Assembly: GCA_965216365.1 (NCBI GenBank)
Contig: CBDCFT010000015.1
Coordinates: 185,106-249,105 of the forward strand
Length of the DNA: 64,000 nucleotides
Direction of reading: 5' to 3'
Source: Arenicellales bacterium
GTDB taxonomy: Bacteria > Pseudomonadota > Gammaproteobacteria > Arenicellales > CBDCFT01
In this document: piece by piece, positions 27,769 to 54,208 of the stretch
Position numbering within the stretch: position 1 is the stretch's first letter
How the letters are laid out: every line of letters starts with the position of its first letter
The notes under the pieces: generated by a model
Database searches by the model: none
Told to the model about the DNA's origin: nothing
The model's input: only the letters and a program-made list of their open reading frames with translations
Program-made: the position numbers and the translations under genes

Positions 27769-28181
27769 TAAAACTTGGCTTATAGAATCTCTATTAGTAC
27801 AAGAACATTGTAACTACGTGTTGATTTTGGGTACGTCGTACATCGAATAACTTTTCTGATCGACCCATAGCAGTCCGTTTTCCAAAGCTTTGGTGGAGTC
27901 CGCTATCGATCGCATAGCTGCCCTCCCTTTTTCTTTCTTTTGCATTAGGCATTACAGAATTCCAAAGTAGCAACCAAACAATGCATCGTTGCTCAATAAC
28001 CATTGGATCAATCTATAGTGAACACCTGTTATTGTTCAAGCGTTTATGGATAATCACACCCTTTAAGGAATCGAAACCACTCTCATACAAACTCAGAACG
28101 CGTTGTTTGGACACAGCGATGCGGTATTTTTTGATGCTAGGCGCAGTTTAAACTCTTGATACTAGGTAAATTCAAATCTCG

Positions 28182-29957: not shown

Positions 29958-30221
29958 TATTTAAATGAAGCGCAATCAGATTAATTCATTATCTTGGTTT
30001 GCCTCTCGTGAATTTTGCTTGCCGATAGATGCCTACTTTTGTATACACACCTGACTCTGTAAAAAGCTACACAAAACGTCAGCTTTTGGCCGCACTGAGC
30101 GCGTCGTAGTCAAAATATGTTTCATTGATAGGTGGATGAATAGGAGAAACACAAACAATCTATGGGCGTGGATGCACTTCCCGAATAGTGAAATCTGACG
30201 TCGGTCGGTATTGCCAATGCT

Positions 30222-34855: not shown

Positions 34856-35272
34856 ATGACGACAACCCATGAAGGTGGCTGCCAATGTGGCGCCGCGCGT
34901 TTTCGTACAACCGATCAGCCACAACGCGTGATCGCGTGTCATTGTACGACGTGTAAGCAACGCACCGGCGCAGCTTACGGTATTGGACTGTATTTCAACG
35001 AATCGGACATCGAATTTTTACAAGGCAAGATGCGGACATTCGAGTTTTATTCCGACGAGAGCAACCGTTGGTTGCGCAACGAGTTTTGTGAACGATGCGG
35101 GACAGCCGTGACCTGGACGCTGGAGTTACGGCCCGGCTTGCGCGCAATCGCTGGTGGCGCCTATGACGATCCGGATTGGTTTGATATTACCGCGCATATC
35201 TGGACACGTTCCGCGCGCAGCGACATGTGTTACCCCGATCACGTTAAGCTATACGAAAAAGCGATGACGTAA
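34856..35272 (+). CDS. GFA-family protein (glutathione-dependent formaldehyde-activating enzyme-like, CENP-V fold)
   Basis: GGCQCGAARF...CHCTTCKQ zinc-cysteine motifs; 138 aa. Confidence 0.85.
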   Translation: MTTTHEGGCQCGAARFRTTDQPQRVIACHCTTCKQRTGAAYGIGLYFNESDIEFLQGKMRTFEFYSDESNRWLRNEFCERCGTAVTWTLELRPGLRAIAGGAYDDPDWFDITAHIWTRSARSDMCYPDHVKLYEKAMT

Positions 35273-35333
35273 ACTTGGATTTGTAATCAATTTACCGCAG
35301 GTCAACGCCTGAGGTTTTAAGTTCGGCCAGTAG
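35261..35333. repeat. Direct repeat DR1 (last 23 nt of the GFA CDS plus ~50 nt downstream), ~85% identical to 39908–39990
   Basis: tacgaaaaagcgatgacgtaaac...ggatttgtaatcaattt.ccg...cctgaggtt.taagttcggc is shared by both copies. Confidence 0.6.
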
Positions 35334-35399
35334 GGGACAGTTTGTCAACAACAAAAATCAGCCGGTTCACCGGCACATAGCGGACTGTGGTCTACCAGA

Positions 35400-36233
35400 T
35401 CAAGTCCGTTTCCTACAAATAACTTCGATTGGGGCAATATAATCTCTTGAGATATTATCAATCATATTCCCAATTTTTTTCGTAGTGGCTTCCTGCATCA
35501 AAGTGTGAAGGCCAAGAGGCGGTGGGCCTCCGCTCGCTTTTGTTTTTGCCTGCAGTCGCTTAAAGAAGTCGAGTGCGAAGTCACGACGATTGTTTACTTT
35601 GAGGACTTCAAAGCCTGCATCCTTTAGGGCTTCCATGTATTGTTCAGGTGTCGATAATTTACTGATACTACTGTCTGTTGCCCATGGAACCGGGTAAGTC
35701 AACTCACCTTCCTTGTTGCGCATGACGTCATAAACACCAAATGAAGCTTCTGGCCGTAGCGCTCGATGTATCTCAGAAAACAGTTCAGCTTTGTTTTCAA
35801 TATTCATCCCCACATGCATCATGTAAGCACCATCGAAAGTTTCATCCTGAAAAGGCAGCGACAGCGCACTGCCTTGTTGAAGCGTAACTCTCTCCTCCAA
35901 TCCCACCCAGGCACACAATGCATTTCCCGTTTCGATATACTCGTGCGTTAAATCAATGCCGGTAACCCGATTGTTGTACTTGTCAGCGACAAAGCGTGAA
36001 GCGCCTCCCAATCCACAACCCACATCAAGCACATGTTCTTTTGTAGAAAAGTCGAGTTGTGCGAGAAAACTTTCAGTCGCTTGTCGCCCGCCAATGTGGA
36101 ACTCATCGACGGCAGCAAGGTCTTCAATAGTTACGCTATCAACCGTCTTGCCCAACTGAGCAATTGCAGCTTGAATCGCTTGAAGTAAACTTCCATGGGC
36201 GTAATGTTCTGAAATATCGCTCTCATTTGGCAT
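35400..36233 (-). CDS. Class I SAM-dependent methyltransferase
   Basis: VLDVGCGLGG motif I. The likely start is ATG at 36233 with a GGGAG SD; the ORF track's TTG start at 36257 is an upstream extension. Confidence 0.8.
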   Translation of the reverse strand: MPNESDISEHYAHGSLLQAIQAAIAQLGKTVDSVTIEDLAAVDEFHIGGRQATESFLAQLDFSTKEHVLDVGCGLGGASRFVADKYNNRVTGIDLTHEYIETGNALCAWVGLEERVTLQQGSALSLPFQDETFDGAYMMHVGMNIENKAELFSEIHRALRPEASFGVYDVMRNKEGELTYPVPWATDSSISKLSTPEQYMEALKDAGFEVLKVNNRRDFALDFFKRLQAKTKASGGPPPLGLHTLMQEATTKKIGNMIDNISRDYIAPIEVICRKRT

Positions 36234-36385
36234 GACTTGAACTCCCAATAGGATCAATCAGGGATTGTTCTTGCTCAACTCGACAACGTTTGCTCGATGG
36301 AAAACCACGGAAGATTGTGCTGTCTATGCTCTACGCCATTACGATTACATTTTTTGAATACGATGGCTAGAAAAATCCTACAAAC

Positions 36386-36874
36386 TTAGACCTCTCGATT
36401 TGTCTCTATGTCCCAGCCGCGACTGACAGGAGGTGTTGGGGTACCCGCCTGGTCTATTGGTCTATACTCAACTGTTACCTTTCGATAACGAAATGTGACT
36501 GCTTCGGACGGTCGCTCCTGTGAAGAGTCCGTGCCGTCATCATTAACGGAGCTGACCATACAGTCATTGAGCACATACTTAACGAAGGTGTGTCTTTCCC
36601 CGCCGGTGCGGACGCCTTCGAGTTCAACAGTCGGAATTCGCTTACCGTTGGCACAGTGAATCATCAAATCAGGAGTTGCTCTATCGACGCTTTTTAATAT
36701 TCCCAGGTCAATAAAGTTTACTTTTCCAGAAGTTCGATCTCTCGGAGCGCTTGAGTCTAGGGCTGGAGTTTCAACACCCCAGCTGTAACTGTGTACATCG
36801 ATCCACTTGTTGTGATCAGCGTCCGTGCTTTCACCTTCAATGCCGTCTATACGAAGAAAATAGTCTACCGCCAC
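36386..36874 (-). CDS. hcp: Type VI secretion system tube protein Hcp (orphan)
   Basis: 162 aa with MAVDYFLRIDGIEGESTD...SYSWGV...VEYRP, hallmark Hcp1-family motifs, and an AAGGAGG SD. No other T6SS genes are in the window. Confidence 0.85.
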   Translation of the reverse strand: MAVDYFLRIDGIEGESTDADHNKWIDVHSYSWGVETPALDSSAPRDRTSGKVNFIDLGILKSVDRATPDLMIHCANGKRIPTVELEGVRTGGERHTFVKYVLNDCMVSSVNDDGTDSSQERPSEAVTFRYRKVTVEYRPIDQAGTPTPPVSRGWDIETNREV

Positions 36875-37304
36875 GTTTTGCCTCCTTGTTTATAAACGAT
36901 CCACAACGATACGGCATTGATAACACATTACAGTAACTTGTCGCCTCACCCGAATGGGTGATATTTAGACTACTAATGCGAACTATGGGTGTCGAAAATC
37001 ACAGCTTGATTCGTTGTTCATGTATCCACACGTTAAGATAATACTTATCTACGACCAACAAGAGACTATGGAGGTAGATTGAAATTACGTTCGTTTGTTT
37101 GGCTATAGCGGTCGAAGCTGTTTGAATATTCCATGAAGCAACAAATACAGCAATTGCTGGATAATCTCATATAGAGTGGGAAATTAATCAACAAATCAGT
37201 AGCGACCACGTAATTCGACGCGACAATACCCCCCTTTCCTCGACCGAATCGAATCCTGTCTAACGAATGCCCTGTTTGTTATTTTCTTTCAGTCGTGTCT
37301 ATTG

Positions 37305-37499
37305 TTAATAAACTGCGAAATAAATCGCCGCGAGAAGCAATACGACCACTACCGCGTGCAACCCAATACGCGTGAACATCATTTCATGACTATGCTGTTG
37401 ATCGAATTGCCCGCCTCGCGCCATGGATACTATACCCATGAGTAGAACTGCGACGGTAGCAACGAGCGCAATGACTAAAATCACGGTTAGCACGTTCAT
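37305..37499 (-). CDS. Small two-TM membrane protein (64 aa)
   Basis: A GAGGTGA SD and two hydrophobic helices flanking ARGGQFDQQH. Confidence 0.5.
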   Translation of the reverse strand: MNVLTVILVIALVATVAVLLMGIVSMARGGQFDQQHSHEMMFTRIGLHAVVVVLLLAAIYFAVY

Positions 37500-37755
37500 T
37501 CTTCATCACCTCACGTTTAGGAATTATGTGCAACTGACAAAGCTAACACATCAAATACGATTCACACTGATCTGAATCAATAATTCGGCAACCAATGTTT
37601 GTTAGATTACGAATGCGTGATAGAAACGATATTGTGCGAATGCACAATATCGTTTTCACAATACGTATTGTTTTGCCGCTAAGTAGATTTAGAGGAAGGC
37701 ATGCGTTGGTAGCGTAACCATATCAACGCCACGTCTCCCGAGGAGGTAGTTACTT

Positions 37756-38184
37756 ATGAAAACCGTCAAACAGCTTCTCGATGAAAAAGGACACGATGTC
37801 GCATCGATTCATCCCGATGACTCTGTTCTTGATGCCATTCAAAAGATGGCGGATATGGAAATAGGGGCATTGCTGGTGATGGATAATGACAAACCCGTCG
37901 GGATCGTTACCGAGCGACTTTATGCGCGTGGCGTCATTCTCAAAGGAAAGTCATCCCCCAAAACCAAGGTAAGGGAGATCATGACACGTTCGGTCATCTG
38001 TGCCCGACCCGAACAAACGGTCGAAGAATGCATGGCCGTGATGACAGAAAAGCGTGTGCGCCATCTTCCGGTGATTGACGAGAAGAAAATCGTGGGTATT
38101 GTCTCGATTGGCGATCTGGTCAAAAGCATTATCGAGGATCAGAAATTCGTCATCGAACAATTCGAACATTATGTTCATGGGTGA
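37756..38184 (+). CDS. CBS-domain pair protein
   Basis: 142 aa with two CBS motifs (GALLVMDNDKPVGIVTERL; HLPVIDEKKIVGIVSIGDLV) and a GGAGG SD. Confidence 0.85.
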   Translation: MKTVKQLLDEKGHDVASIHPDDSVLDAIQKMADMEIGALLVMDNDKPVGIVTERLYARGVILKGKSSPKTKVREIMTRSVICARPEQTVEECMAVMTEKRVRHLPVIDEKKIVGIVSIGDLVKSIIEDQKFVIEQFEHYVHG

Positions 38185-38311
38185 CGAGTTTCCAATATCT
38201 CGGAGATGACGACACAGGATAAAGAGGCGCATTCCAGACTATTCAACTGCGTCTATGGGTTTCGTAGTATCGTCCACTACTGTTCAATCGCAGTTGTTTG
38301 CGATGCACTAA

Positions 38312-38393
38312 CGGCCAACTACGGACTCTTTGCTATGTCACTAAAAAGGTCTGTTAGACACTTGAGACCAGGCTCTATTGACCGCGCTTTGCC
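38312..38393. repeat. Copy R1 of a small (~80–100 bp) intergenic repeat family
   Basis: cggccaactacggactctttgctatgtcac...ggtctgttagacacttgagacc...attgaccgcgctttgcc aligns with 45105–45187, 40009–40071 and 43789–43840. Confidence 0.6.
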
Positions 38394-38924
38394 TGATAGT
38401 GTCATACGGATATTAGTGCCCATGTATTCAATCCGTTGTTGTTAGTTAGAAGTGTTTCTGGATTATGTTTGACTATTGCCAATTGTTTTGCCTCCCGGTA
38501 TAGATGGAAATATTACAGCTTGCTTTGGAAGCTCTTTCTTCAAACGCTAATACTTACGCGAGCATCATTGTTGAACGAAATGTATATCCTTGTGATCGAT
38601 TGATAAAGTACCGATCAATGGGTCCTGATTTGCCCTGATCTAGTATTTATGCCATTTTGTTTGACTTGCGCGCTACGGCCAGACTCGGTTGTAGAGCCAC
38701 CAATTTGAAAAGGCGACTGTCAGGAGCAGTCTAGTTCACAAACTTTTAACTGAATATCGAGAGGTTTGCTATCGGTGGCATCGGTGTTTCGGTAAATAGG
38801 TTCTGCTCCAACAAAGGTACGTAAACACTCATAGGGCGCGATGCTGGATGCGAAATTATCGTGCGCTAAGCCTCGGTTAAGTCCGATTTGGCCCGTGAGA
38901 GCGAACTATGCTGCCAAAGAACAA

Positions 38925-39739
38925 TCAATCCGATCCTTCAGACGTGATCACGAGCCACTTCGGTCGCTCTAGAGTCAGCAGAAAGACTCCGGCCAAGACA
39001 AACGTGCCACCCGTTATGCGGTTAAATATCTGCAGGCTGCCAATAGATTTCGTATAGCTGGCGACCTTTGTTGCGAAACCTGCAAGAAGCATTTCCAGCA
39101 CAACCTCTACGGCCACGAATGTTCCCGCCAAAACTATAAACTGCGACCAAAATGTAGCTTCGATGACGTAGAACTGCGGCAAGAACGTGGTAAAGAAAAT
39201 CAGTACCTTTGGATTCATTGCGACGATCATGAATCCCTGAACAAAAAGATTTAGATTAGAGCGACCTTTGATCTCGTCGCGGTGACTCTTCTCGTCTATG
39301 CGGTCGAAGACAGAGCAGCACGGGTTTACCCGTGGGTGAATGAGCTACGTTGTTGCTCATCGTGGCCCGTAGTTGAAGTGATGAGCAGCAACGGCAGCCC
39401 GAAGGGCTGTGACAGTAAGCACCCCGGCTTTAGCCGGGGGAATCTATGGTCGATGCTTTCGACCGAAAGAGGGAAATGCCCAGGTAAATCAAGTACCCAG
39501 CCGTTAGCCACTTAATCATCATAAATGCGACTACGGAAGCGGATAAGACTAGCCCCAGTCCCGACAACGAGAGTCCGATAAGCACAGTCAGACCGCTGGC
39601 GCATCCCAATGTTAGGGAATAACGTTTTTCTTACACCGTACCGTAGACCGTTTGTCATCGACAAGAGGCTGTTCGGTCCTGGCGTTAGGCATCGCAAAAC
39701 CACCGCCGATGCATATATGCCCCAAAATTTCGCGCTCAT
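38925..39739 (-). pseudogene. LysE/RhtB-family amino-acid exporter gene, disrupted by frameshifts and a ~170-nt hairpin-rich insertion
   Basis: The N-terminus MSAKFWGIYASAVVLRCLTPGPNSLLSMTNGLRYG (39739 downward) and the C-terminus ...NPKVLIFFTTFLPQF... (down to 38925) match RhtB. The middle (39231–39520) shifts frame twice and is about 170 nt longer than expected. Confidence 0.6.
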
Positions 39740-39907
39740 CTGCTATCTCTTTAATACTGTTGAAAAACTCGTTGTCTTGAAAAGTTATTCTCAAAACCGA
39801 AAAGATTTGGCGTGTTCGGCGACCTGAAATCGTTTTTCTCGCGTCGAATTCCAAAGCACGACATTCTGCGCTCCGTCATATTCGTGAAAATGTGAGAGAT
39901 TAAACAA

Positions 39908-39990
39908 TACGAAAAAGCGATGACGTAAACATAAACTAGGATTTACAATCAATTTGCCGGCAGATCGAAGCCTGAGGTTATAAGTTCGGC
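39908..39990. repeat. Direct repeat DR2 (a copy of the GFA 3' end region)
   Basis: See DR1. It includes a duplicated ...tacgaaaaagcgatgacgtaaac, which is the GFA C-terminal codons plus stop. Confidence 0.6.
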
Positions 39991-40008
39991 TATTTTCGGG
40001 TCCTTTGC

Positions 40009-40071
40009 AACGTGATGAAATTTAGTCTGTTAGACACTTAAACGCAGGTTTTTTTGACCGCACTTTGCTCA
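40009..40071. repeat. Copy R2 (partial) of the small repeat family, abutting DR2
   Basis: gggtcctttgcaacgtgatgaaatttagtctgttagacacttaaacgcagg...gaccgcactttgc. Confidence 0.5.
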
Positions 40072-40297
40072 GAGCGAGCATTCACAGAGCTAATCCCTTG
40101 TCATGTCTGATGGTATAGCGAACTTGATATGATTACGTGAATTGAGATGACAAACTAAGGCTACAGAAACTAGTTGAGTAGTTAGCTAATTGCTCTCGAA
40201 CATCAAAAATATTGAGATCGCTCAGTTCAATACTCCTGTACAATAGTCTTCCATATATATTTTCTGTACTGATCTGCGGAGGATCATAGTAAATTAC

Positions 40298-41176
40298 ATG
40301 CTGAAACCGAAAATTTTATACATTTTGATTGTTTCCGGCATGGCAGCGGCAATAGTTTCCATTGAATCCTCATTCAGTGCACAGCCATTTTTTAAAGATG
40401 CAAAATCCGTCGAATTCTCGAGCTACTTCTACGTTTATCCCCCAACACCTTTCGCGGTCAAAAGAGCTCAAAAGTTGGGAACTGAAGTAGAAGAGAAAAC
40501 GGAACCTAGCGTTCCGTTAACTGGTTATCTGATAAGACCAGAGAGCGAGAAACCTCACCCCGCTGTGGTTCTTCTGCATACTTGTTCTGGAATCACAGAT
40601 CACGAAGAGTACTGGACTGCTCAACTTGTTAGCTGGGGCTACGTCGTTTTGGTCGTGGATTCACTAACTCCCCGCGGTCAGAAGTACATCTGCGACGGCA
40701 GAGTAGGCTCAGTATCACCCTGGAACCGAGCCCTTGACGCCTTTGGCGCTAAAAAATACTTATCGAATCTTCCATTTGTCGATCCAAACCGCATCGCCGT
40801 AGTCGGAGCATCGCATGGCGGAATGGCCGTACTGGAGATAATCAAGCAATCGACCTCGGAGAATATACCAATTAGTCCATTTCGAGCCGCAGTTGCTTTT
40901 TACCCGCTGTGTGGTGAACCAGAATTGTTAAATGCCCCCACATTGGTGATGATTGGAGGCGCGGACAAGTGGACCCCAGCGGAACAATGCATCCAATACC
41001 TACAGAAACTGGAACAACCTCACGAAATGACTTTGAGAGTGTTCCCGGATGCTCACCATTTGTTTGATCATCCCGGGATTGATACTGAGGAACTCGGCTT
41101 TATTATTCGTTCTAACGTTGATGCTGCTCAACAAGCTATCCAGATGACTCGCGAGTTCTTGAGAGAGCAGTTGTAG
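40298..41176 (+). CDS. Dienelactone-hydrolase-family alpha/beta hydrolase (secreted)
   Basis: A signal peptide, the nucleophile elbow VVGASHGG, and a conserved DAHHLF C-terminal His; 292 aa. Confidence 0.75.
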   Translation: MLKPKILYILIVSGMAAAIVSIESSFSAQPFFKDAKSVEFSSYFYVYPPTPFAVKRAQKLGTEVEEKTEPSVPLTGYLIRPESEKPHPAVVLLHTCSGITDHEEYWTAQLVSWGYVVLVVDSLTPRGQKYICDGRVGSVSPWNRALDAFGAKKYLSNLPFVDPNRIAVVGASHGGMAVLEIIKQSTSENIPISPFRAAVAFYPLCGEPELLNAPTLVMIGGADKWTPAEQCIQYLQKLEQPHEMTLRVFPDAHHLFDHPGIDTEELGFIIRSNVDAAQQAIQMTREFLREQL

Positions 41177-41876
41177 TCCACGCTACACGAAATAGTAGCT
41201 CGCGTTTGGTGCATTCCGTTTAAGGACTCTTGCCCCACCTAAAAAACGGAGCTAAAAGCAAGTCAGCCATTTTGATGGAAGTGACAGATCACGTTGCGAA
41301 CAACATAGTCATCAAGAGTACCGCTTGTATTCAATGGATTTTCTACTGTACCGACTCTCAGTTCATTCCCGTTTTCTCCATCGGTTAGGTTCCTCCAGTC
41401 ATAGACACAGTTTGGGGATGCCAGTGATTTCGGTTTCCGTCGTTGTTGTTGAATAAATAACCGTTAGCGCCACGTCAAGGACGCCGTTAATTGATCGGGG
41501 AATAATGGCTGGTAAGCTTACGCCTTGAGCCATGACACGGCTCTTGCATTTGCTTGATCTTTTAGAATCTTCGGGATTTGTAGATGCTCACTGAATCAAG
41601 CTAGAAGCCCCCGCAGTTGATGATGCTCTACGACAGATAAGTCGCCATAGCCTCGCAAGTTATGAGTCGCGACGAGCATGCCAGTTTTACGCTTGGAGTT
41701 TGGGTCTATATCCAGAAGCGTAAAGCGAACATATGAAATTTGTTTCAGATAGAGCACACCTAACACCGCGCTAATCGGAAGATGCTGAGCAGCCTTCCGC
41801 ATTTTTTCGCCGTCTTGTTATCAGCGACAATAGCCCCGCCACTTTGAGTAGCACAAGCGGAATCAGTTGAAAACTA

Positions 41877-41915
41877 AGGGGTCGGAGTGATTTTTTCATC
41901 ACTCCGACTCCTTTA
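41877..41915. terminator. Perfect 11-bp inverted repeat (gtcggagtgat / atcactccgac) between convergent hydrolase and esterase genes
   Basis: A hairpin with loop ttttttc lying 3' of both convergent genes. Confidence 0.45.
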
Positions 41916-41919
41916 GGTA

Positions 41920-43365
41920 CTAATTGGTGTTACCGACGGACCACTGGAAAAAACGCCACATGATGTCCATGGGTTCATTACCGCCCGTGCTGGGATCCGT
42001 TCCTCCGCTCCAGTCATAAAACGCATAAGGGAAATGGGTGTCGCCAACATCGTCGCCAGGCGCTTCAGTATCCCACAGGCAGATCGCAAGCTTTTCACAG
42101 GTGCCGCCCTCCGCGTCCTTTGTAAAACAGTTGAATTTCTCCTGTCCGGCACCTTCCAGTGCTTCAAGCCTGCGGTATCCTTCGGGAACCACGCCACCTG
42201 GCTCCAATGCTCCATTCCGATCACCGGTATCTTCCGGTGCAAATCCGCAATCAGCATAACCGGAGTTGTTTTCCGCGTATTCTGCAAAGATCTGCAACAC
42301 GGCCGGATAGATCCAAATCGGATTCCATCCGCCACCGGCTGCGCCAGCAAAATCAGTGTAGGGCACACCATCATAGGGTTCGAACCGGTCGAATATTTCA
42401 TTGGCGTGTAATACCCAGGGCGAATCGCCTTCTTTTGGTGCTTGTATCCAACGGAGGTGATCTTCCTTTCCGGCCTGGTCCACACCATCCACAGGCAACA
42501 GAGCCTTAAACAAACCCGAAGTATCGGGATGCCGGGCCAACAGATGTGACATCAATCCACCATTCGAATAACCCGTCGCGAAAATCTGCCCCGGATCTAC
42601 ACATTGATTATCCATGGACCATTTAATGATCGCTCGAGTAAAATCAATCTCACGTTGCGTCGAAACTGCATCGTCTTCGTTGATATCGCCGCACCAGTCG
42701 CACGGAATGCCGTCTTCAAGCAGGCAACCGTCATCTGGAACCTGACAGGAGGGCACCGCCCAGTTATTCGCCGGACCAAATGCATAGTTGGTAGGGGTGT
42801 TATCGCCGGTTGGATAGAGACTGATAAAACCGACTGCCTCGCCTTTGGGTTCGAGCTTCCATTGCCACGAATCCGGGCCATTTCCACCAAATCCGTGGTA
42901 GCCCACAACGATCGGGCACGGCGTGCAGTCTTCTCCATCACAAGCACACTGACTTGGAACACTAATGTCAAGTTTGCGTCCACCGTAATTATTGCCATCA
43001 CCAACATCGAAGGGCAATGGTGGCTGCAATCCGGAATCGCCCACCATACAACCCAGTGACATCTGCTCACAGGGTAATTCTTCATTACCGGTGAGGCGCT
43101 GATAGTTGGATTTGATCCGGGTGCAGGCATTTTCCGACGCCGTGGGATCCCAGTCACAATCCATGGCTTCACAATAGGCATTGCACAATCCGAACGCTCT
43201 GCCTTTTTCAGAGTCACACACACTTGGATTAGAATTTTTGCTCTTACTTAGAGCAGGCGTTGACCATGGTATTGAGACCATTAAACAACATACTGCAATC
43301 AGACACACTTCCCGATTGAGGTCAGACAACGCGCGAGAAAAACTCAATTTAACGAAAGTCTTCAT
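41920..43365 (-). CDS. Secreted esterase of the PHB-depolymerase/feruloyl-esterase family with an N-terminal Cys-rich region
   Basis: 481 aa with a signal peptide, a GYSNGG nucleophile motif and many Cys in the first 150 aa. Confidence 0.65.
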   Translation of the reverse strand: MKTFVKLSFSRALSDLNREVCLIAVCCLMVSIPWSTPALSKSKNSNPSVCDSEKGRAFGLCNAYCEAMDCDWDPTASENACTRIKSNYQRLTGNEELPCEQMSLGCMVGDSGLQPPLPFDVGDGNNYGGRKLDISVPSQCACDGEDCTPCPIVVGYHGFGGNGPDSWQWKLEPKGEAVGFISLYPTGDNTPTNYAFGPANNWAVPSCQVPDDGCLLEDGIPCDWCGDINEDDAVSTQREIDFTRAIIKWSMDNQCVDPGQIFATGYSNGGLMSHLLARHPDTSGLFKALLPVDGVDQAGKEDHLRWIQAPKEGDSPWVLHANEIFDRFEPYDGVPYTDFAGAAGGGWNPIWIYPAVLQIFAEYAENNSGYADCGFAPEDTGDRNGALEPGGVVPEGYRRLEALEGAGQEKFNCFTKDAEGGTCEKLAICLWDTEAPGDDVGDTHFPYAFYDWSGGTDPSTGGNEPMDIMWRFFQWSVGNTN

Positions 43366-43788
43366 CTTAGTAGTCCTGATCTATTTGTAAGTGGAGGCGC
43401 CCTTGCAGTTTACCAGAGAACATCAGCGATATCCGAACCCTCTAATCTCTGATTCAACTCTATCTCTCTAATATTCCAGCAGCGAAAGGTAATTTTCGAG
43501 GGCCGGCCGGTCCAGGATTAAAGTAAAGTACATCATCCCTTATTTCATTCACCGGTGTGTGAGATTGTCAAAAAAAGAAAATGTCAAACCCCTCCTCAGT
43601 TTCGACTTCGAACTCGTCTGTATTGTGAATAAGGAAGAAGTATTTTCAGCTCTCGGTTTGTGCTGAAGTTCAACGAACACAACATCGTTGTCAACGCTGT
43701 GCTGCTTTTCGTTATCGCGAACAAAACGGAACCGGTAACAATCGTGAACAAGAGATAGTGCCGACGGACTTTAGATCAGGGCAGCAAG

Positions 43789-43840
43789 CGGCCAACTACG
43801 GACGGTATTCAGGTTTAAATTAACGGTCTGTTCTTAGGGC
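43789..43840. repeat. Copy R4 (partial) of the small repeat family
   Basis: cggccaactacggacggtattcagg...ggtctgttcttagggc. Confidence 0.45.
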
Positions 43841-44095
43841 ATTAGCAGTCATAGTCGTGTGCCCATTGAATCGATGAAATCATAGTTGATTTCATGAGTG
43901 AAGCATTGTGAGGCATTTAATAAAATGATCGATACGATATCTTCTGGGTTATAGACAGTTATGGATTTCGGTGGAATTGTGACTGAGGAGTTCCGGAAAC
44001 CCATTACGGTGTTTTTGTCCTTTTAAAAACTAAGCGCAATCCTAAGAACCTCCGTGACAGCGAAAATCAATCCAAAGCTCGCGTTCATCCATCAA

Positions 44096-44563
44096 CTATC
44101 GAAAAATCTGCGGCCGTGTTTTGAATAATCCGATAGCCATAAGAATGCAAAAGCCCCAAGGCATGATCAACATGGGTGCACCGGTTTCTAAGAAAAATCT
44201 TGTCACGCCATATGCATCATTTAAACCAACCCAAACGAAACTGAATAGCAAATACCACCAAGCCCACTTATAGCCATACCGAAGCGCGAAAAAAGAGACA
44301 AGAATGACCGCAAGTGCCGCTGAAACTATATTGATGCTTGCAAGGTCCGCCAACAACACAACAAGTGGACCCGCCTGTGGATCTACAGCGGCTAGATCGC
44401 CAAAACTAAAATTCAGATTGTGAATTAAAAACGTCCAAACGGAATCATGATTTGCGAAAGAAATTTTTGATGTCAACAGCATGAATAGTCCCGCCGTGAG
44501 CGGGATAAATCCCGCCGCCATTGTCCATTTCCAGCCAGTGATTTCATTGGATGTCGTGTTCAT
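44096..44563 (-). CDS. Hypothetical integral membrane protein (155 aa)
   Basis: Four predicted TM helices; no recognisable family. Confidence 0.5.
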   Translation of the reverse strand: MNTTSNEITGWKWTMAAGFIPLTAGLFMLLTSKISFANHDSVWTFLIHNLNFSFGDLAAVDPQAGPLVVLLADLASINIVSAALAVILVSFFALRYGYKWAWWYLLFSFVWVGLNDAYGVTRFFLETGAPMLIMPWGFCILMAIGLFKTRPQIFR

Positions 44564-44778
44564 GGCGCATCTTCCTCCTTCTCATTGACAAATGGTCTAA
44601 ATTCTACGGGGTACAGCCTGGAAGTTATCGAAACCAGGTGGTTTTTGATCGCATAACGTCCGCCTCCTATTCAATCCATTTTTGTTCAACTTTCCCTGAC
44701 GGGGTACAATCAACTTCCGATAGTTGCGTGAGTAATAATTCGCAACGGACACGTCGGAGTCCTACAGGAGAATCTACA

Positions 44779-44937
44779 TGACTGTTTGTCCAATTGCTAT
44801 TATGGCCGGCTGCAAAAAATGCCCGGCAGTCTCAGTGTGCCCTTTGAAGAGTGTCCTCGGCGACTACATGAAAGACAGTAGTGGCGAGCAGAGACCTCAG
44901 TCGAAGCCAATGAACTCAGATCAGGATAAGGACTAAG
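44779..44937 (+). CDS. Possible 52-aa CxxC-containing small protein
   Basis: caggagaatctacATG SD. Translation MTVCPIAIMAGCKKCPAVSVCPLKS... has 5 Cys. It is below the 60-aa cutoff of the ORF track. Confidence 0.3.
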
Positions 44938-45104
44938 CGCAATCCTACGGATCGCTGGGCTCGGTAGCGTACTGTTGAGGGGAGCGGGATTTGTACAGGA
45001 ATCATTAAGGTTGCTGTGTGTTCCAATCCAGACCCCATTTCGGCATGATGCATTAGACCGCTACAGTGGCTCGACCACGATCGTTTACGGTGACTCGTCA
45101 CTAT

Positions 45105-45187
45105 CGGCCAATTACGGACCCTTTGCTATGTAACTGAATAGGTCCGTTAGACACTCAAGAACAGACTCCATTGATCGCACTTAGCCC
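45105..45187. repeat. Copy R3 of the small repeat family
   Basis: cggccaattacggaccctttgctatgtaac...ggtccgttagacactcaagaac...attgatcgcacttagcc. Confidence 0.6.
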
Positions 45188-45255
45188 TAAGCGGACAAGA
45201 TACGTAGCGCGCAGTAGCTGTTGGGCATTAGCGCCTTGTTAGGCGGTGAATTTCT

Positions 45256-45627
45256 TTAGAGCGAACCATCCGCATCATGGACTTCGTGCCCAGTAAGTGC
45301 CGGATAAAAAGTACAAATCAATCGCATCTGCGTCTTAGCTCTGATTCGGTGTCGATCATGATTATTCATCGCATAAAGTGTACCTGGCCTTATCTCGTGT
45401 ACTGTCCCTGAATCCACTTCCTCAACGGTTCCCTCACCTTCCAAGCAATAACAGGCTTCCAAATGATTCTTTTGCCATAACTGCATCTCAAATCCAGCCT
45501 CTAGAATCGAATCGGTTAAAGTGACCTGCATGCCATCTTCTTCATGGAGTAACCGAAAACTATGCCAGCGTTCTCCACTTGAATCACCTTTTGTACCAAC
45601 GATGTCGTCTTTTGTTCTAATAATCAT
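45256..45627 (-). CDS. Ectoine-synthase-like cupin (EctC family), orphan
   Basis: 123 aa with ...EACYCLEGEGTVEEVDSGTVHEIRPGTLYAMNNHDRHRIRAKTQMRLICTFYPALTGHEVHDADGS, collinear with EctC. No ectAB nearby. Confidence 0.75.
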   Translation of the reverse strand: MIIRTKDDIVGTKGDSSGERWHSFRLLHEEDGMQVTLTDSILEAGFEMQLWQKNHLEACYCLEGEGTVEEVDSGTVHEIRPGTLYAMNNHDRHRIRAKTQMRLICTFYPALTGHEVHDADGSL

Positions 45628-45805
45628 GATGGTGAACCTCGCTCTTTATTGGAAAATCTGAGAGGTATTTTGGCCGAATAGCAGTTGTATATGAGGGCTC
45701 CCCGGTTTGTTTTTATGGTCCTATTATACAATTTCCGATATGTCTATTCTCAAAGCTTCAATGCTTAGTCACCGCATCATATGACAAAATATCGTTATTT
45801 CTTTC

Positions 45806-47563
45806 GTGTGCCTTGAAATTTACAAAATGAAGCGAAAACTCGCCGCAATATTGTATGCCGACGTAGCCGGATATAGCAGGCTTACTGATGCAGACGAAGA
45901 AGCGACTCATATGCGACTAGATGCAGGGCTTGATCGCCTCACCGAACTGGTCGAAGCAAGCGGAGGGAAAAAAGTACATGAAGCGGGTGATGCCATACTC
46001 GCTGAATTCGAGAGCGTTATAGCCGCCGTGCAATCAGCCATCAATTTTCAGATTCAGATGTCTGAAGTAAATGCAGAGCTCGATGATGAAGATCGATTTG
46101 AATTCAGAATTGGCATTAATCTCGGAGAGGTCATGCATGACCGGGATGATATTTATGGGGATGGTGTAAACCTTGCCGCTCGTATTCAGGATATCGCAGA
46201 TCCCGGTGGCATTTGCATTTCCGGTAAGGTTTTCGACGAGGTAAATAACAAAGTCAAATGCGGATTCGACGACTTGGGCGAGAAACAGGTCAAAAATATT
46301 AAGAATCCCGTTAGGCTATACCGGGTCGTGTTCGATAACACGCCTGTTCGAACTATTAAAGAAGCGAAGCTTTTTAAGAAGCCCGCAGTGGCTGTGTTGC
46401 CGTTCGACAACCTTTCCGGAGACCCCGAACAGGAATATTTCAGCGACGGATTAAGTGAAGATATCATAACGTTGTTATCGGCCTGGCGTTCATTTCCCGT
46501 CGTTGCGCGCAACTCTAGTTTTGTCTTCAAGGGCCAGCATCGAGACGTAAGGCAAATCGGTCTTGAACTCTCGGCTCGCTATGTTATTGAAGGGAGCGTG
46601 CGCAAAAGCGGTGATCGCGTGCGTGTAACCGCACAATTAATTGATGCCGAGACGGGCCATCATTTATGGGCTGAGAAATTTGACGGATTACTCGATGATA
46701 TTTTTGAAATTCAAGACAATATAACTTTGCAAATTGTCTCATTAGTTGAACCACAATTAGAGGAAGCTGAGCGCAACAAGACGGCAACGTTACGATCTTC
46801 CAACTTAAGCGCATGGAACTACTATTTACAAGGCAGGGCTCTTCTGCACAAGCTGACCGCTGAGGGAACTGTTGAAGCGCGCCAACTCTTTGAGAAAGCT
46901 ATTCAACTAGACCCTCAATACAGTGACGCCTATGCTGGTCTTTCGTATACCTATCAGCGAGAGATCTTACTAGAAGTTACTGATGATCGGATCGGCTGGG
47001 AGAAAAAAGCACTTGAAGCAGCACAACGAGCCGTTGAGCTCGATAATGGGTCTTCTTTAGCGCATTTGGCATTGGGCGGAGCCTATATCTGGTCAAATCA
47101 ACATGAATTGTCCGTAGCGGAGACTCGGACTGCAGTAGAGCGCAATCCAAGTAATGTATTGGCTCGACTGGCGTTAGGCAACCGGTTAGACATCGTGGGT
47201 AAGTCTGATGAGGGAATACCGCTTTTGAAGAAATCCCTTGAACTCAACCCTCTCGATCCGCACGGCCATATCTATTTTACACAGCTGGCGCGCGCCTACA
47301 TTAATGCACGAGACTACCAGAACGCTTTATTCTACTTGCAAGAATCAATTCGACGAAAACCCGAATATCCGCACACCTATCATGTGTTGGCAATTTGCTT
47401 GGGCCATCTTGATCGTATTGAAGAGGCAAGAGATGCTGCTGCTAAGTGTGAGCAATTACACTTGGGTTTTATCAATAAGCGAGCACACTGGAATATTTAT
47501 TTGGATGCAAAAGCAAACGAGCACCTTACTGACGGCCTGCGAAAAGCTGGCTTGGTTGAATGA
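45806..47563 (+). CDS. Class III adenylate/guanylate cyclase (CHD) fused to TPR repeats
   Basis: N-terminal AILYADVAGYSRL...GDAILAEF...RIGINLGEV...GDGVNLAARIQ cyclase core with a C-terminal TPR array. The start may be ATG at 45827. Confidence 0.85.
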   Translation: MCLEIYKMKRKLAAILYADVAGYSRLTDADEEATHMRLDAGLDRLTELVEASGGKKVHEAGDAILAEFESVIAAVQSAINFQIQMSEVNAELDDEDRFEFRIGINLGEVMHDRDDIYGDGVNLAARIQDIADPGGICISGKVFDEVNNKVKCGFDDLGEKQVKNIKNPVRLYRVVFDNTPVRTIKEAKLFKKPAVAVLPFDNLSGDPEQEYFSDGLSEDIITLLSAWRSFPVVARNSSFVFKGQHRDVRQIGLELSARYVIEGSVRKSGDRVRVTAQLIDAETGHHLWAEKFDGLLDDIFEIQDNITLQIVSLVEPQLEEAERNKTATLRSSNLSAWNYYLQGRALLHKLTAEGTVEARQLFEKAIQLDPQYSDAYAGLSYTYQREILLEVTDDRIGWEKKALEAAQRAVELDNGSSLAHLALGGAYIWSNQHELSVAETRTAVERNPSNVLARLALGNRLDIVGKSDEGIPLLKKSLELNPLDPHGHIYFTQLARAYINARDYQNALFYLQESIRRKPEYPHTYHVLAICLGHLDRIEEARDAAAKCEQLHLGFINKRAHWNIYLDAKANEHLTDGLRKAGLVE

Positions 47564-47913
47564 CAGCGAGACCGATAATTAATAACGATGCTTTGTCTGA
47601 TCATTTGAAGATGGCTAAGAGTAGTGCTTTCAATATTGACTATTTTGATGCTTGATTCGCAGCCATTCGGCTGACAGTCTACCTTCGAGTAACAAAAAAA
47701 CAACGTCTCAAAGTTGCCCACTTCAGCCATTAACTAACCTGCCAAATGAAGTCATATTAGCCAAGGACAAATATTTGCAAATCACCGGAAAGGCGACCTC
47801 AATTGCGTCTATGGTGTATTGTTTTACTCCCTTTTGCCTTGGGAACTTGCTATCCTGCTTTCGGATAGATGACAGAAACATTATCCCATGTTTGGGAGAG
47901 GAGGATAACCAAA

Positions 47914-48474
47914 ATGGCCAATTCATACTCTTTTCTACAGTATGTCAGTGACTTGAAAAAGATTACTAAGGAAACCACCGATGAGGCGGAAATTATTAGT
48001 CGGGTTGCTCCACTGGCCGAGCGCTTGGTAACTGACAAATCATGGCTGCAACAAAAATATTATGAAACCGATGAAGAACAGGGATTTGGTGTACACCTAT
48101 TGCATGAGGAACCGGACCATACGCTCGCCATTTTGATGGTTAGCTGGTTACCAGGTCGAGGCACGCCTCCGCACGATCATGGAACTTGGGCCGTGGTTGC
48201 GGGTGTCGAAGGCACGGAGAGAAATATCCGATATAAGAGGTTGGATGATGGCAGTCGGCCAGGCTACGCCGAGCTAGAAGTAAAACATGACTTTAACGCC
48301 GATGAAGGGGATGTGGTTTCTATAAAAAATAGTGGAATCCATGCAGTTATCAATGAAACCGATAGCATAACCTTGTCATTACATACATATGGAAAGCACA
48401 TAAACTATACAAACCGATCACAGTTTAACGTCGAAACCAATGAACAAAAGGAATATATTGTTAGGGTAGAGTAA
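47914..48474 (+). CDS. Second cysteine-dioxygenase type I family cupin (thiol dioxygenase-like)
   Basis: PPHDHGTWAVVAGVEGTE HxH motif. A strong SD (ggagaggagg) precedes ATG at 47914; the ORF track starts earlier, at 47869. Confidence 0.7.
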   Translation: MANSYSFLQYVSDLKKITKETTDEAEIISRVAPLAERLVTDKSWLQQKYYETDEEQGFGVHLLHEEPDHTLAILMVSWLPGRGTPPHDHGTWAVVAGVEGTERNIRYKRLDDGSRPGYAELEVKHDFNADEGDVVSIKNSGIHAVINETDSITLSLHTYGKHINYTNRSQFNVETNEQKEYIVRVE

Positions 48475-48619
48475 GTAGAAGAACGACCGTATCGAGTATA
48501 CAACGGAAGCTTTGGGAAGTTACTAGAAAGGTTCGTTACGGGTCGTTTTTACCAGTTCGCTGACAACGGATTCTTGTTCGATGAATTCGTTTGGACGACA
48601 GAGTACTTACGGCCAATAT

Positions 48620-49964: not shown

Positions 49965-50151
49965 CTTTTTATCAATCTAATCTACGTCTGCTTTCTGTTG
50001 TATAGCAGCCACACATTTCCGCAGCCATATTTTACTTCCTCCATGGCGTTCGATTTTACAATTGACATGGCGGTGAAAGTACTCAAGGCGGGCAATGTGC
50101 CATTCCCCATGTAGTGTCTTACGGGATACCGTGAGGTTTTGTAACCATTGT

Positions 50152-54045: not shown

Positions 54046-54208
54046 CGAATATCTAAAACTTCAGATTTGACTATTCAAATAAGATTTTTTTGAAAATTTG
54101 GAACTAATTTAAATTCACGTGCGTCATTGGCGGTGCGGTTGTTGTGATAGCCAATCAATACGCGCTAATTAAATTTTAACTATTGTTGATTATCCAAGGA
54201 GATAAAAG

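What the first reader, a model, noticed from the sequence alone, without database searches (positions are those of the whole stretch)
35261..39990. 4.6 kb low-GC segment bounded by ~85-bp direct repeats that duplicate the 3' end of the GFA gene; carries an orphan T6SS hcp
A block that includes the last 23 nt of the GFA coding sequence (…YEKAMT*) plus ~60 nt downstream recurs, about 85% identical, at 39908–39990. Target-end duplication of this kind is typical of site-specific insertion. The enclosed segment has lower GC than its neighbours. It carries a SAM methyltransferase, an Hcp tube protein, a small TM protein, a CBS-pair protein and a disrupted lysE. No integrase or transposase remains, and the 15% divergence between repeats indicates an old event.
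Basis: seen in the sequence. Interest (0 to 1): 0.6.

Follow-up and report, generated by a model that had tools for sequence, protein, structure and literature searches.

The report
Decayed insert in a cassette hotspot
A 4.6-kb patchwork of genes lies between two copies of the tail of a GFA-family gene: the scar of an old insertion into a 23-kb strain-variable hotspot. The insertion is ordinary, but the short repeat that heads each piece of the hotspot may be a new kind of recombination site.

Summary
The repeat is real. Copy A (35244-35329) and copy B (39900-39992) share 75 identical positions, 11 mismatches and two indels (blastn E 5e-17). Each holds the last 29 nt of the GFA gene plus about 57 nt downstream. 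All five gene calls hold, and no recombinase lies in the segment.

The segment is not a discrete island. It is the GFA-proximal part of a 22.8-kb variable region (35273-58083). That region is absent from a related Arenicellales chromosome, where GFA sits about 55 nt from the thiolase/ABC operon. A closer relative has 3.6 kb of different genes there. The lower GC (46%) applies to the whole region, not to the segment.

Both copies end at a CGGCCA motif. This motif is the left edge of a repeat family ("r": CGGCCA-N6-GAC-N22-GTC). It has 10 copies, all in variable DNA and 9 on one strand, and homology between strains and species repeatedly breaks at it.

Best reading: an old single-crossover insertion of a multi-module block that carried its own copy of the GFA-end/r junction. 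The block has since decayed and keeps no recombinase. It is closest to integrase-less att-flanked elements (CIMEs) in an additive genomic island. The hcp is a true but orphan Hcp with no linked effector.

The parts
34856..35272 (+). GFA-family gene (138 aa). This is the conserved left flank and its 3' end is the duplicated target.
   Evidence: Pfam PF04828, E 4.6e-26. Orthologues at 85-96% aa identity in L001, L002 and L003.
35244..35329 (+). Repeat copy A: the last 29 nt of GFA, then a hairpin plus T-run (candidate GFA terminator), ending in CGGCCA.
   Evidence: Hairpin ACC.CAGGT/GCCTG.GGT followed by TTTT in the fold of 35290-35400. L002 confirms this junction up to position 35331.
35330..39899 (.). 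The enclosed 4.57-kb segment: at least four modules carrying MTase+Hcp, HIG+CBS, a 469-nt piece, and a lysE pseudogene.
35400..36233 (-). Class I SAM methyltransferase (277 aa from the ATG start). Its intrinsic terminator is at 35374-35361.
   Evidence: Pfam. 7565 homologues at E<=1e-40, mostly 67-76% identical, from many taxa. Terminator scan.
36386..36874 (-). Orphan Hcp (TssD), 162 aa, with no C-terminal extension.
   Evidence: PF05638, E 2.6e-37. TIGR03344 scores 60.0 bits against a cutoff of 58.9. PDB Hcp1 1y12, E 7e-26. The nearest non-self homologue is 59% identical and sits beside AhpC.
37052..37111 (+). r37, a degenerate r copy (CGACCAAC...) at the left end of the HIG-CBS module.
   Evidence: In the four-way alignment, homology with L023 and L019 starts at CG(G/A)C and the left flanks are all unrelated. 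nhmmer alone is weak, E 2.4.
37305..38184 (.). HIG_1_N small membrane protein (37305-37499, -) and CBS-pair protein (37756-38184, +): a conserved divergent gene pair.
   Evidence: Pfam. The same pair at 77-86% nt identity occurs in L019, L020, L023, L024 and L025, in other neighbourhoods.
38312..38395 (+). r38, a long-type r copy. It opens a 469-nt stretch (about 38310-38778) that is missing in strain L021.
38925..39739 (-). lysE pseudogene, in at least three reading frames. It carries different deletions in strain L021.
   Evidence: Partial PF01810 match, profile positions 108-191 of 193. ORF list. L021 lacks 39321-39382 and 39465-39892.
39900..39992 (+). Repeat copy B: the displaced GFA end (...KQYEKAMT*) with a decayed terminator (its T-run is broken), ending in CGGCTA.
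   Evidence: Present at 98% identity in L021. It keeps the ancestral CAA codon.
39987..40070 (+). r39, a long-type r copy that continues straight on from copy B.
35273..58083 (.). The whole variable region between GFA and the thiolase/ABC operon (22,811 nt, 46.4% GC).
   Evidence: Synteny breaks with L001 and L003. GC content. Gene content.
43789..43835 (+). r43, a short-type r copy. The 98%-identical block shared with L021 ends here, after GGCCAA.
45105..45190 (+). r45, a long-type r copy.
48610..50010 (+). r48, an r copy split by an IS256-family element (48628-49958, transposase 48668-49894 on the - strand) with the 8-bp target duplication GAGACCCT.
   Evidence: Pfam Transposase_mut, E 6e-115. 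Inverted repeats and target duplication. The restored sequence aligns to the r profile.
53008..53055 (+). r53, a short-type r copy.
30035..30092 (-). r30, an r copy in the second variable region. Homology with L001 begins inside it.
27861..27918 (+). r27, a weak r-like copy about 90 nt inside the left border of the second variable region (27769-33600, absent in L003).
   Evidence: nhmmer E 1.8 only. Border position. This copy is tentative.

Best explanation
The segment is the scar of an old single-crossover (Campbell-type) insertion into the junction just downstream of the GFA gene. That junction is the entry point of an 'additive' hotspot where the lineage stacks unrelated gene modules between GFA and a thiolase/ABC operon.

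The incoming DNA was a block of several modules (MTase+Hcp, HIG+CBS, a 469-nt piece, lysE). It carried its own copy of the GFA-end/terminator sequence joined to an r element. Recombination with the resident copy left GFA intact (copy A) and pushed the other copy (B) 4.6 kb downstream, in front of the older modules (DLH and the 481-aa protein onward). The crossover was either site-specific at the CGGCCA edge of r or homologous across the ~86-nt shared stretch. No recombinase travelled with the block or survives near it. Since then lysE has decayed and the two copies have drifted apart.

Shown: the repeat; the empty site in a related species; the mosaic cargo; the age markers; and the coincidence of homology breaks with r.

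Inferred: that the block entered as one piece, that it was circular, and which enzyme did it.
For: 1. A and B are real, and their left edge is sharp inside the CDS. Both copies keep the frame and stop codon, as expected when an insert must restore the target gene.
2. L003 has GFA and the thiolase operon about 55 nt apart. L001 has 3.6 kb of other genes there. Neither has a second GFA end.
3. B carries the ancestral Gln codon found in L001 and L003, whereas A and L002 carry Leu. L002's single copy agrees with A at 8 of the A/B differences and with B at 6, including both indels. The three sequences are therefore about equally distant and the event is old. L002 ends ...CGGTCAGT, the A-type junction.
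4. B and its neighbours on both sides are conserved at 96-98% in an independent assembly, L021.
5. A/B similarity stops at CGGCyA, the first bases of r. The motif CGGCCA-N6-GAC-N22-GTC occurs 5 times against 0.02 expected. With degenerate copies there are 10 in the window, all in the 28.6 kb of variable DNA and 9 on the + strand.
6. Homology breaks fall in or at r in several independent comparisons: window vs L021 at r43 and r38; window vs L001 at r30; window vs L023 vs L019 at r37, where three unrelated left flanks abut the same module; and L014 next to a shared 400-nt block.
7. The 64 kb contains no integrase and no T6SS genes.
Against: No genome was found that has GFA joined directly to r39/DLH, that is, one lacking only this 4.6 kb. 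One-step entry is therefore inferred, not seen. The A-to-MTase junction (35331-35400) is supported only by the window's own assembly. L002's contig stops at the end of the repeat and L021 starts inside hcp.

The break in L021 near r38 does not sit at exactly the same base as the others, and the L022/L001 break is 230 nt away from an r copy. r has no significant fold (z about 0), and its hairpin is kept in only about half of the copies. No enzyme can be named. r could be a common intergenic repeat of this genome that lies near breakpoints simply because both are confined to intergenic DNA. Only 64 kb of the genome could be examined.
Confidence: 0.55

Rival explanations
1. This is a classic self-encoded integrative element (prophage, ICE or IME remnant). 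Its own tyrosine or serine integrase targeted the GFA 3' end with an ~86-bp att core. The integrase and transfer genes were later deleted, leaving a CIME in the strict sense. On this reading r is incidental.
For: [quoted passage not shown] The element is integrase-less and att-flanked, which matches the published definition of a CIME (PMC5704250). The site is a hotspot.
Against: The 4.6 kb, and the whole 64 kb, hold no integrase, excisionase, relaxase, phage or conjugation remnant, not even a pseudogene detectable by Pfam. The cargo is a patchwork of modules found singly in other contexts. The GFA-end sequence was not found in 2.9 million viral contigs, and the B/r39 and r45 sequences gave no match in plasmid and phage collections respectively. 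No relative carries an integrase at this site.
Confidence: 0.2
2. The region is an integron-type cassette array without integrase (a CALIN) read on the minus strand, with r acting as attC. Each r, reverse-complemented, sits after a minus-strand gene and ends in GTTGGCC, and cassettes join at G|TT.
For: On the reverse strand r reads GTCTAAC (fits RYYYAAC) ... GTTGGCC (close to GTTRRRY). r usually lies downstream of the stop codon of a minus-strand gene, 40-80 nt in the clearest cases (MTase, EctC-like, OLD-like nuclease). Copies share orientation. The homology break at r43 falls at GGCCAA|C, which is G|TT on the reverse strand. IS elements have inserted into two r copies.
Against: The core is only about 40-50 nt. 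The R and L boxes abut, with no unpaired central spacer. The hairpin is weak (fold z about 0), and pairing beyond GAC/GTC holds in only about 9 of 15 copies. GTT and AAC are not conserved across the family. Modules hold up to 3-4 genes in both orientations. No IntI-like gene lies in the 64 kb.
Confidence: 0.07
3. There was no insertion at this junction. Copy B is a local duplication or gene-conversion product of the GFA tail. r is a generic intergenic repeat (REP- or MITE-like) whose closeness to breakpoints is a by-product of both being intergenic.
For: L002 is equally distant from A and B, as expected for paralogous copies drifting in place. Long r copies show weak terminal inverted similarity, about 9 of 14 positions (seen by eye in sequences). 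The variable DNA has more intergenic space.
Against: A local duplication of 86-93 nt does not explain 4.6 kb of foreign-context genes between the copies. Nor does it explain why relatives have GFA next to the thiolase operon. No r copy was detected in about 35 kb of core DNA, which also contains intergenic gaps. At r37, three different left flanks meet the same module exactly at CGGCC.
Confidence: 0.12
4. The structure is an assembly artefact: the MAG contig is chimeric at the repeat.
For: The window comes from a metagenome-assembled 347-kb contig. The A-to-MTase junction has no independent support. L002's contig ends exactly at the end of the repeat.
Against: A and B share at most 24 exact bases and differ by two indels, so they are poor bait for a chimeric join. 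The B context is reproduced in an independent assembly from another sample. L002 reproduces the GFA-to-A junction with A-type final bases.
Confidence: 0.03

Closest known systems
CIMEs (cis-mobilizable elements) and tandem accretion at the 3' end of a target gene, e.g. the ICESt1/ICESt3 family at fda in Streptococcus thermophilus (definition read in PMC5704250)
   Same: The segment lacks integration and transfer genes. [quoted passage not shown] It lies in tandem with other inserted DNA at the same site, and the target gene stays intact.
   Different: No trace of an ICE or IME backbone is present and no cognate integrase is known. The inside is itself a mosaic of smaller modules, each headed by another repeat (r). 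The repeat is long (86-93 nt) and 13-19% diverged.
Additive flexible genomic islands of marine Gammaproteobacteria, i.e. Alteromonas hotspots where cassettes pile up, some still marked by a direct repeat of part of the target (PMC4898812)
   Same: The site is fixed between conserved genes. Its gene cassettes differ between close strains and are shared across species (HIG-CBS, and the 400-nt block shared with L014). A tell-tale repeat of the target lies downstream of an inserted piece.
   Different: The target is the 3' end of a protein-coding gene (GFA family), not the tRNA or tmRNA genes used at most Alteromonas hotspots. The cassettes here carry a common leader repeat with fixed geometry, which the Alteromonas passages read here do not mention.
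SCC composite islands at the 3' end of rlmH (orfX) in staphylococci (from my own knowledge, not checked here)
   Same: Repeated copies of the last bases of a housekeeping gene separate tandem cassettes, and some cassettes lack recombinase genes.
   Different: SCC repeats are about 15-20 bp and are recognised by Ccr serine recombinases encoded in at least one cassette. No such gene is present here.
Integron cassette arrays / CALINs (from my own knowledge: Cury et al. 2016, IntegronFinder)
   Same: The array consists of same-orientation short sites at module borders. Junctions lie at one edge of the site. IS elements have inserted into the sites. No integrase is nearby, as in a CALIN.
   Different: r lacks the attC architecture (spaced R/L boxes, a stable imperfect hairpin). 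Modules are multi-gene and mixed in orientation.

Membership tests
CIME / decayed site-specific integrative element | [quoted passage not shown] | tested here: met
   A 35244-35329 and B 39900-39992, E 5e-17; both include the last 29 nt of GFA.
CIME / decayed site-specific integrative element | Lacks its own integration and transfer genes | tested here: met
   Pfam finds no recombinase, relaxase or transfer gene between 35330 and 39899.
CIME / decayed site-specific integrative element | Derived from, or mobilisable by, a related ICE/IME whose integrase recognises the same att sites | tested here: not met
   No integrase lies in the 64 kb or at this site in L001 or L003-L005. The viral scan gave no hit for the GFA-end pattern, and the B/r39 query gave no plasmid match. 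Whether an integrase exists elsewhere in the genome is not testable here.
CIME / decayed site-specific integrative element | An empty site exists in related genomes | tested here: inconclusive
   L003 lacks the whole 22.8 kb. No genome was found that lacks only the 4.6 kb.
Additive flexible genomic island (integration hotspot) | Same chromosomal position between conserved flanks, with different gene content in related genomes | tested here: met
   Between GFA and the thiolase operon, the window has 22.8 kb, L001 has 3.6 kb of other genes and L003 has about 55 nt. L021 diverges from the window after r43.
Additive flexible genomic island (integration hotspot) | Cassettes shared with other genomes independently of the flanks | tested here: met
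   The HIG-CBS module lies in a DsrC/cytochrome c context in L019, L020 and L023. The 44655-45062 block is 80% identical in L014.
Integron cassette array / CALIN (attC sites) | R''(RYYYAAC)-L''...L'-R'(GTTRRRY) boxes with spacers, forming a stable imperfect hairpin of 57-141 nt | tested here: not met
   The core is about 40-50 nt and the boxes abut. Fold z-scores range from -0.1 to +0.9. Pairing outside GAC/GTC is kept in about 9 of 15 copies. GTT and AAC are not conserved.
Integron cassette array / CALIN (attC sites) | Integron integrase (IntI) adjacent, or elsewhere in the genome for a CALIN | tested here: inconclusive
   None lies in the 64 kb. The rest of the genome was not available.
T6SS tube protein Hcp (TssD) | Sequence membership of the Hcp family | tested here: met
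   PF05638, E 2.6e-37. TIGR03344 scores 60.0 bits against a cutoff of 58.9. PDB Hcp1 and EvpC, E about 1e-25 over the full length.
T6SS tube protein Hcp (TssD) | Linked T6SS core genes, VgrG/PAAR, or an effector (fused or adjacent) | tested here: not met
   No T6SS family appears among the ORFs of the 64 kb that were scanned, which includes most ORFs of 150 aa or more. Hcp is 162 aa with no extension. Its neighbours are a widespread methyltransferase and a HIG_1_N protein. Whether a T6SS exists elsewhere in the genome is not testable here.
REP / MITE-type intergenic repeat (as an identity for r) | Strong palindrome or terminal inverted repeats with a target duplication, dispersed genome-wide | tested here: inconclusive
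   There is no significant fold. Long copies show only weak terminal inverted similarity, about 9 of 14. No target duplication was seen. All 10 copies lie in variable DNA within the one 64-kb window available.

The most novel reading that the evidence does not exclude
The r element (CGGCCA-N6-GAC-N22-GTC, with an 85-90-nt long form) is the recombination site of a cassette system that has not been described. On this reading, multi-gene modules each headed by one r in a fixed orientation are moved between genomes and stacked at hotspots by a recombinase encoded elsewhere, with the join at the CGGCCA edge. It would resemble an integron in logic but differ in site structure and in cassette size. 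The GFA-end duplication would be a by-product: a block of modules excised together with a piece of the flank and then re-inserted.
Probability: 0.18. Interest if true: 0.7.

Novelty: new member of a known kind. Interest (0 to 1): 0.38.

Why it matters
On its own the repeat-bounded segment is one more decayed insert at a hotspot in an uncultured marine Arenicellales genome, and it changes little. It is useful mainly as a dated marker. The displaced GFA tail shows that the hotspot grows by additions next to the conserved gene, and that the pieces then decay quickly: lysE is broken in different ways in two strains that are 96-98% identical.

The more interesting lead is the r family. It is a short motif of fixed geometry found only in the variable DNA. 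It sits at the border of the same gene module in three different genomic contexts, and at strain and species homology breaks. If it proves to be a true recombination site, it would give a concrete, testable mechanism for how 'additive' islands in marine bacteria are assembled. Such islands are mostly described without any known enzyme or site.

Tried and rejected
- **Degraded second GFA gene at copy B.** I looked for any GFA remnant upstream of B. There is none; the score is below the shuffle mean.
- **Further copies of the GFA end.** None in the window, and none in L001 or L003-L007.
- **A known RNA or tRNA fragment.** ARAGORN and Rfam at gathering threshold find only tRNA-Lys at 33041-33113. 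Rfam at E<=1 over 35200-45300 gives only a chance miRNA hit.
- **r as attC or another structured element.** Single-sequence folds on both strands are not better than shuffles. The alifold and pair counts are unconvincing.
- **A phage or plasmid origin.** Megablast of 33000-42000 against plasmids found nothing. Distant blastn of B+r39 against plasmids and of r45 against phages found nothing. Two viral-contig pattern scans returned 0 hits.
- **The methyltransferase as an ancestral neighbour of GFA.** L005 has a methyltransferase 1.3 kb downstream of GFA, but it is only 26% identical, so it is not an orthologue.
- **Independent contigs across junction A.** An exact look-up of the window's GFA and Hcp proteins returned no readable contig. 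The closest methyltransferase relative is 83% identical on a 946-nt contig. The HIG look-up returned only L021 again.
- **The one metagenome scan.** The GFA-end pattern was therefore never scanned in metagenomes.

Full report
**1. The observation**

Positions 35244-35329 (copy A) and 39900-39992 (copy B) are direct repeats. They share 75 identical positions, with 11 mismatches and two indels of 6 and 1 nt. The longest exact run is 24 nt. blastn of the A region against the whole window finds B at E = 5e-17 and nothing else of note.

The repeat starts 29 nt before the end of the GFA reading frame (34856-35272). It runs about 57 nt past the stop codon. Upstream of B there is no trace of the rest of GFA: the local alignment score is 9, against 9.95 +/- 1.4 for shuffles, and in-register identity is 1-3 of 10. 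The left edge is therefore sharp.

In copy A the downstream part folds into a hairpin followed by TTTT, a plausible GFA terminator. In B the T-run is broken (TTAT).

- GFA
- a class I SAM methyltransferase (35400-36233, -)
- Hcp (36386-36874, -)
- a HIG_1_N small membrane protein (37305-37499, -)
- a CBS pair (37756-38184, +)
- a LysE C-terminal fragment (38925-39230, -), with the N-terminal part in other frames up to 39739

GC content is 46.0% in the segment against about 51% in the syntenic core. However, the DNA to the right has the same GC (47.0% and 46.3%).

**2. Organism and relatives**

The GFA protein has close relatives only in uncultured Gammaproteobacteria. The one genome scan places it in Arenicellales. 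The window's own contig (347,110 nt, NCBI/ENA) is on record but could not be fetched.

Four relatives matter:
- **L003** is a complete Arenicellales chromosome (OZ244198.1; GFA 85% aa identity).
- **L001** is a 70-kb JGI contig, about 80% nt identical.
- **L002** is a 521-nt ENA contig, 93% nt identical. It covers GFA and the 66 nt after it.
- **L021** is an 8.8-kb ENA contig, 96-98% nt identical to window 36838-43793.

**3. The segment is part of a larger variable region**

In L003, Rieske+GFA align to window 33602-35271 and the thiolase/ABC operon to 58084-63875, with about 55 nt between them. In L001 the same two flanks are 3.6 kb apart. They enclose different genes: a 152-aa protein, a glyoxalase, an AraC regulator and a HAD hydrolase. 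Both synteny breaks fall at the GFA stop codon.

Window 35273-58083 (22,811 nt) is therefore lineage-specific. Its right part carries:
- a dienelactone hydrolase and a 481-aa hydrolase-like protein
- an orphan EctC-like protein
- two cyclase-domain proteins
- an IS256 transposase
- BTRD1-repeat proteins
- an ECF sigma factor
- two methyltransferases

It carries no integrase. No recombinase other than IS transposases, and no T6SS gene, was found among the ORFs scanned across the 64 kb. None of L001 or L003-L007 has a second copy of its GFA end.

**4. Age and direction**

The last codons read ...K-L-Y-E-K-A-M-T* in the live gene (A) and in L002. They read ...K-Q-Y-E-K-A-M-T* in B, and Q (CAA) is also the state in L001 and L003. 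B therefore split off before the Gln-to-Leu change that the window and L002 share, or it came from a lineage that never had that change.

At the 16 points where A and B differ, L002 agrees with A at 8, with B at 6 (including both indels) and with neither at 2. L002 also has 4 changes of its own. The three sequences are about equally distant. L002's last bases (CGGTCAGT) are of the A type, not the B type (CGGCTATT).

Copy B, with lysE remnants on its left and DLH plus the 481-aa gene on its right, is present in L021 at 98% identity. The event is old and the arrangement is stable in the population.

lysE is decaying independently in the two strains. The window has frame breaks. L021 lacks 39321-39382 and 39465-39892, and the second of these deletions ends 7 nt from B's left edge.

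**5. The cargo is a patchwork**

The HIG-CBS pair occurs at 77-86% nt identity in five other contigs. In L019 and L020 it lies between DsrC/cytochrome c genes and another methyltransferase.

The methyltransferase belongs to a family with thousands of members at about 70-75% identity in many phyla.

The Hcp is a true family member: TIGR03344 scores 60.0 bits against a cutoff of 58.9, and PDB Hcp1 1y12 gives E 7e-26. Its nearest non-self homologue is only 59% identical and sits beside an AhpC gene. It has no extension domain and no effector-like neighbour.

**6. A repeat family at the module borders**

The sequence that continues copy B (39987-40070) recurs at 38312-38395 and 45105-45190. A profile of the core finds more copies.

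In the window the copies are:
- r27 (27861, weak)
- r30 (30092-30035, minus strand)
- rA (35324, the end of copy A; its 3' half overlaps the methyltransferase terminator, so only the first ~15 nt are secure)
- r37 (37052)
- r38
- r39
- r43 (43789)
- r45
- r48 (48610, split by an IS256 element at 48628-49958 with the 8-bp target duplication GAGACCCT; the restored sequence is a full r)
- r53 (53008)

The strict motif CGGCCA-N6-GAC-N(18-28)-GTC matches 5 times in the window against 0.02 expected. All five matches have exactly 22 nt between GAC and GTC. All ten copies lie in the two variable regions (27769-33600 and 35273-58083), and nine are on the + strand.

Copies also occur in other contigs:
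- L022: two copies, next to a gene that in L001 lies just after GFA
- L023
- L014
- L021
- L001: at the position orthologous to r30

**7. Homology breaks coincide with r**

- A/B similarity ends after CGGCyA.
- The 98% block shared with L021 ends after GGCCAA in r43. There L021 also carries an IS flanked by GGCC, and it then continues with a diverged r (GGCCAAAAAGAGAC...) and unrelated DNA.
- L021 lacks about 38310-38778, a stretch that begins within a few bases of the CGG of r38.
- Window/L001 homology on the left side starts inside r30, within about 17 nt of CGGCC.
- At r37, the window/L021, L023 and L019 have three unrelated left flanks. They become alignable from CG(G/A)C onward through the HIG-CBS module.
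- In L014 an r copy lies 31 nt from a 400-nt block that is 80% identical to window 44655-45062.
- One counter-example exists. The L022/L001 break lies 230 nt from the nearest r.

**8. What r is not**

It matches no Rfam family and no tRNA fragment. It has no significant fold on either strand. A GAC/GTC stem is extended by pairing, with some compensatory changes (ACGGACC/GGTCCGT, ACAGACC/GGTCTGT, CTGAC/GTCAG). This holds only in roughly half of the copies.

Read on the reverse strand it has an attC-like order of boxes and usually sits downstream of a minus-strand gene. However, the boxes abut, GTT and AAC are not conserved, and the modules are multi-gene and mixed in orientation. I therefore do not file it as an attC.

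**9. Mechanism**

The simplest history that fits all of this has three steps.
1. GFA, its terminator and an r junction formed the entry point of a growing stack of modules.
2. A block of modules (rA-MTase-Hcp, r37-HIG-CBS, r38-469 nt, lysE) was joined at its far end to a copy of the GFA tail, terminator and CGGCCA. It recombined once with the resident junction.
3. The result is GFA-term|rA ... lysE-(GFA tail-term)|r39-DLH, which is what is seen.

B's left edge would then be the illegitimate joint made when the block was cut out of a similar locus together with a piece of flank. This is comparable to aberrant excision in specialised transduction (inference).

Whether the crossover was site-specific at CGGCCA or RecA-driven across the shared ~86 nt cannot be told from sequence. 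No recombinase is encoded nearby.

**10. Comparison with known systems**

- **Additive flexible genomic islands.** These are hotspots where cassettes accumulate and where a repeat of part of the target sometimes remains downstream of an inserted cassette (PMC4898812).
- **Differences.** The target here is a protein-coding GFA gene. There is no ICE/IME backbone and no known integrase. The modules share a leader repeat of fixed geometry.
- **SCC composite islands and integron/CALIN arrays.** These are looser analogies, drawn from my own knowledge.

**11. Verdict**

The finding itself is a new example of a known kind of scar and is of modest interest. The r family is the part worth following up. 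Evidence that it marks recombination junctions is suggestive: several independent junctions, strong over-representation, and restriction to variable DNA. It rests, however, on 64 kb of one genome and a handful of short contigs.

Noticed in passing
window 27861, 30035-30092(-), 35324, 37052, 38312, 39987, 43789, 45105, 48610, 53008; also L022 360-446(-) and 1425-1475(-), L023 394-456, L014 4662-4711(-), L021 7641-7710: A repeat family ('r') with the core CGGCCA-N6-GAC-N22-GTC and an 85-90-nt long form. It occurs only in variable DNA, almost always on one strand, and at the borders of gene modules and at homology breaks between strains and species. The strict motif occurs 5 times against 0.02 expected.
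   Followed up: yes
window 48620-49966: An IS256-family element (1331 nt, 48628-49958) with imperfect terminal inverted repeats and the 8-bp target duplication GAGACCCT has inserted inside an r copy. In strain L021 a different IS (DDE_Tnp_1, L021 about 6011-7651, flanked by GGCC) sits inside the r43 equivalent. Two IS families have therefore landed in r elements.
   Followed up: partly
window 27769-33600: A second variable region, absent from L003 and partly shared with L001. It carries an OLD-family ATPase/TOPRIM nuclease (28182-29957; weak match to retron Eco8 effector), a 313-aa protein with no family, a Band_7 protein, and tRNA-Lys(UUU) at 33041-33113(-). It looks like a small defence islet next to a tRNA.
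   Followed up: partly
window 38925-39739 vs L021 1479-2100: lysE is broken differently in two strains that are 96-98% identical: frame breaks in the window, three deletions in L021. It is only 89.6% identical over the part that remains, the fastest-diverging stretch of the shared block.
   Followed up: yes
window 37105-38213; L019 5165-6234; L023 449-1507; L025 159-602: The HIG_1_N + CBS-pair divergent gene pair is a conserved two-gene module (CBS 92-98% aa identity) found in several Arenicellales-like populations. Its neighbours differ: DsrC and cytochrome c in L019/L020, Hcp and lysE in the window.
   Followed up: partly
L014 10001-10057 and 3994-4631; window 44655-45062: A Gammaproteobacteria MAG contig (JAOTWM010000043.1) carries an isolated fragment resembling the last ~19 codons of GFA with no gene in front of it. 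It also carries a 400-nt block 80% identical to window 44655-45062, which includes a 52-aa Cys-rich ORF (44778-44936), next to IS21-like fragments and an r copy.
   Followed up: partly
window 45256-45627(-): An orphan EctC-like (ectoine synthase fold) gene of 123 aa, with no ectA or ectB nearby, lies directly after r45.
   Followed up: no
window 17088-22294(-): An error-prone polymerase cassette: a DnaE2-like Pol III alpha (1027 aa), an ImuB-like Y-family protein (505 aa), and a 205-aa upstream ORF with no Pfam hit. It lies in the core DNA left of the variable regions.
   Followed up: no
window 56603-57874(+): A fusion of a SAM methyltransferase domain with a MerC-like membrane domain (423 aa), preceded by an ECF sigma factor (55632-56327) and another methyltransferase (54591-55466). 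These sit at the right end of the island.
   Followed up: no
window 4316-5802, 7037-8309, 11120-11968: Several genes appear split or truncated: a PBP transpeptidase fragment, a solute-binding protein in two overlapping ORFs, and the C-terminal part of a DDE_Tnp_1_4 transposase. These are either pseudogenes or frameshift errors in the MAG assembly.
   Followed up: no
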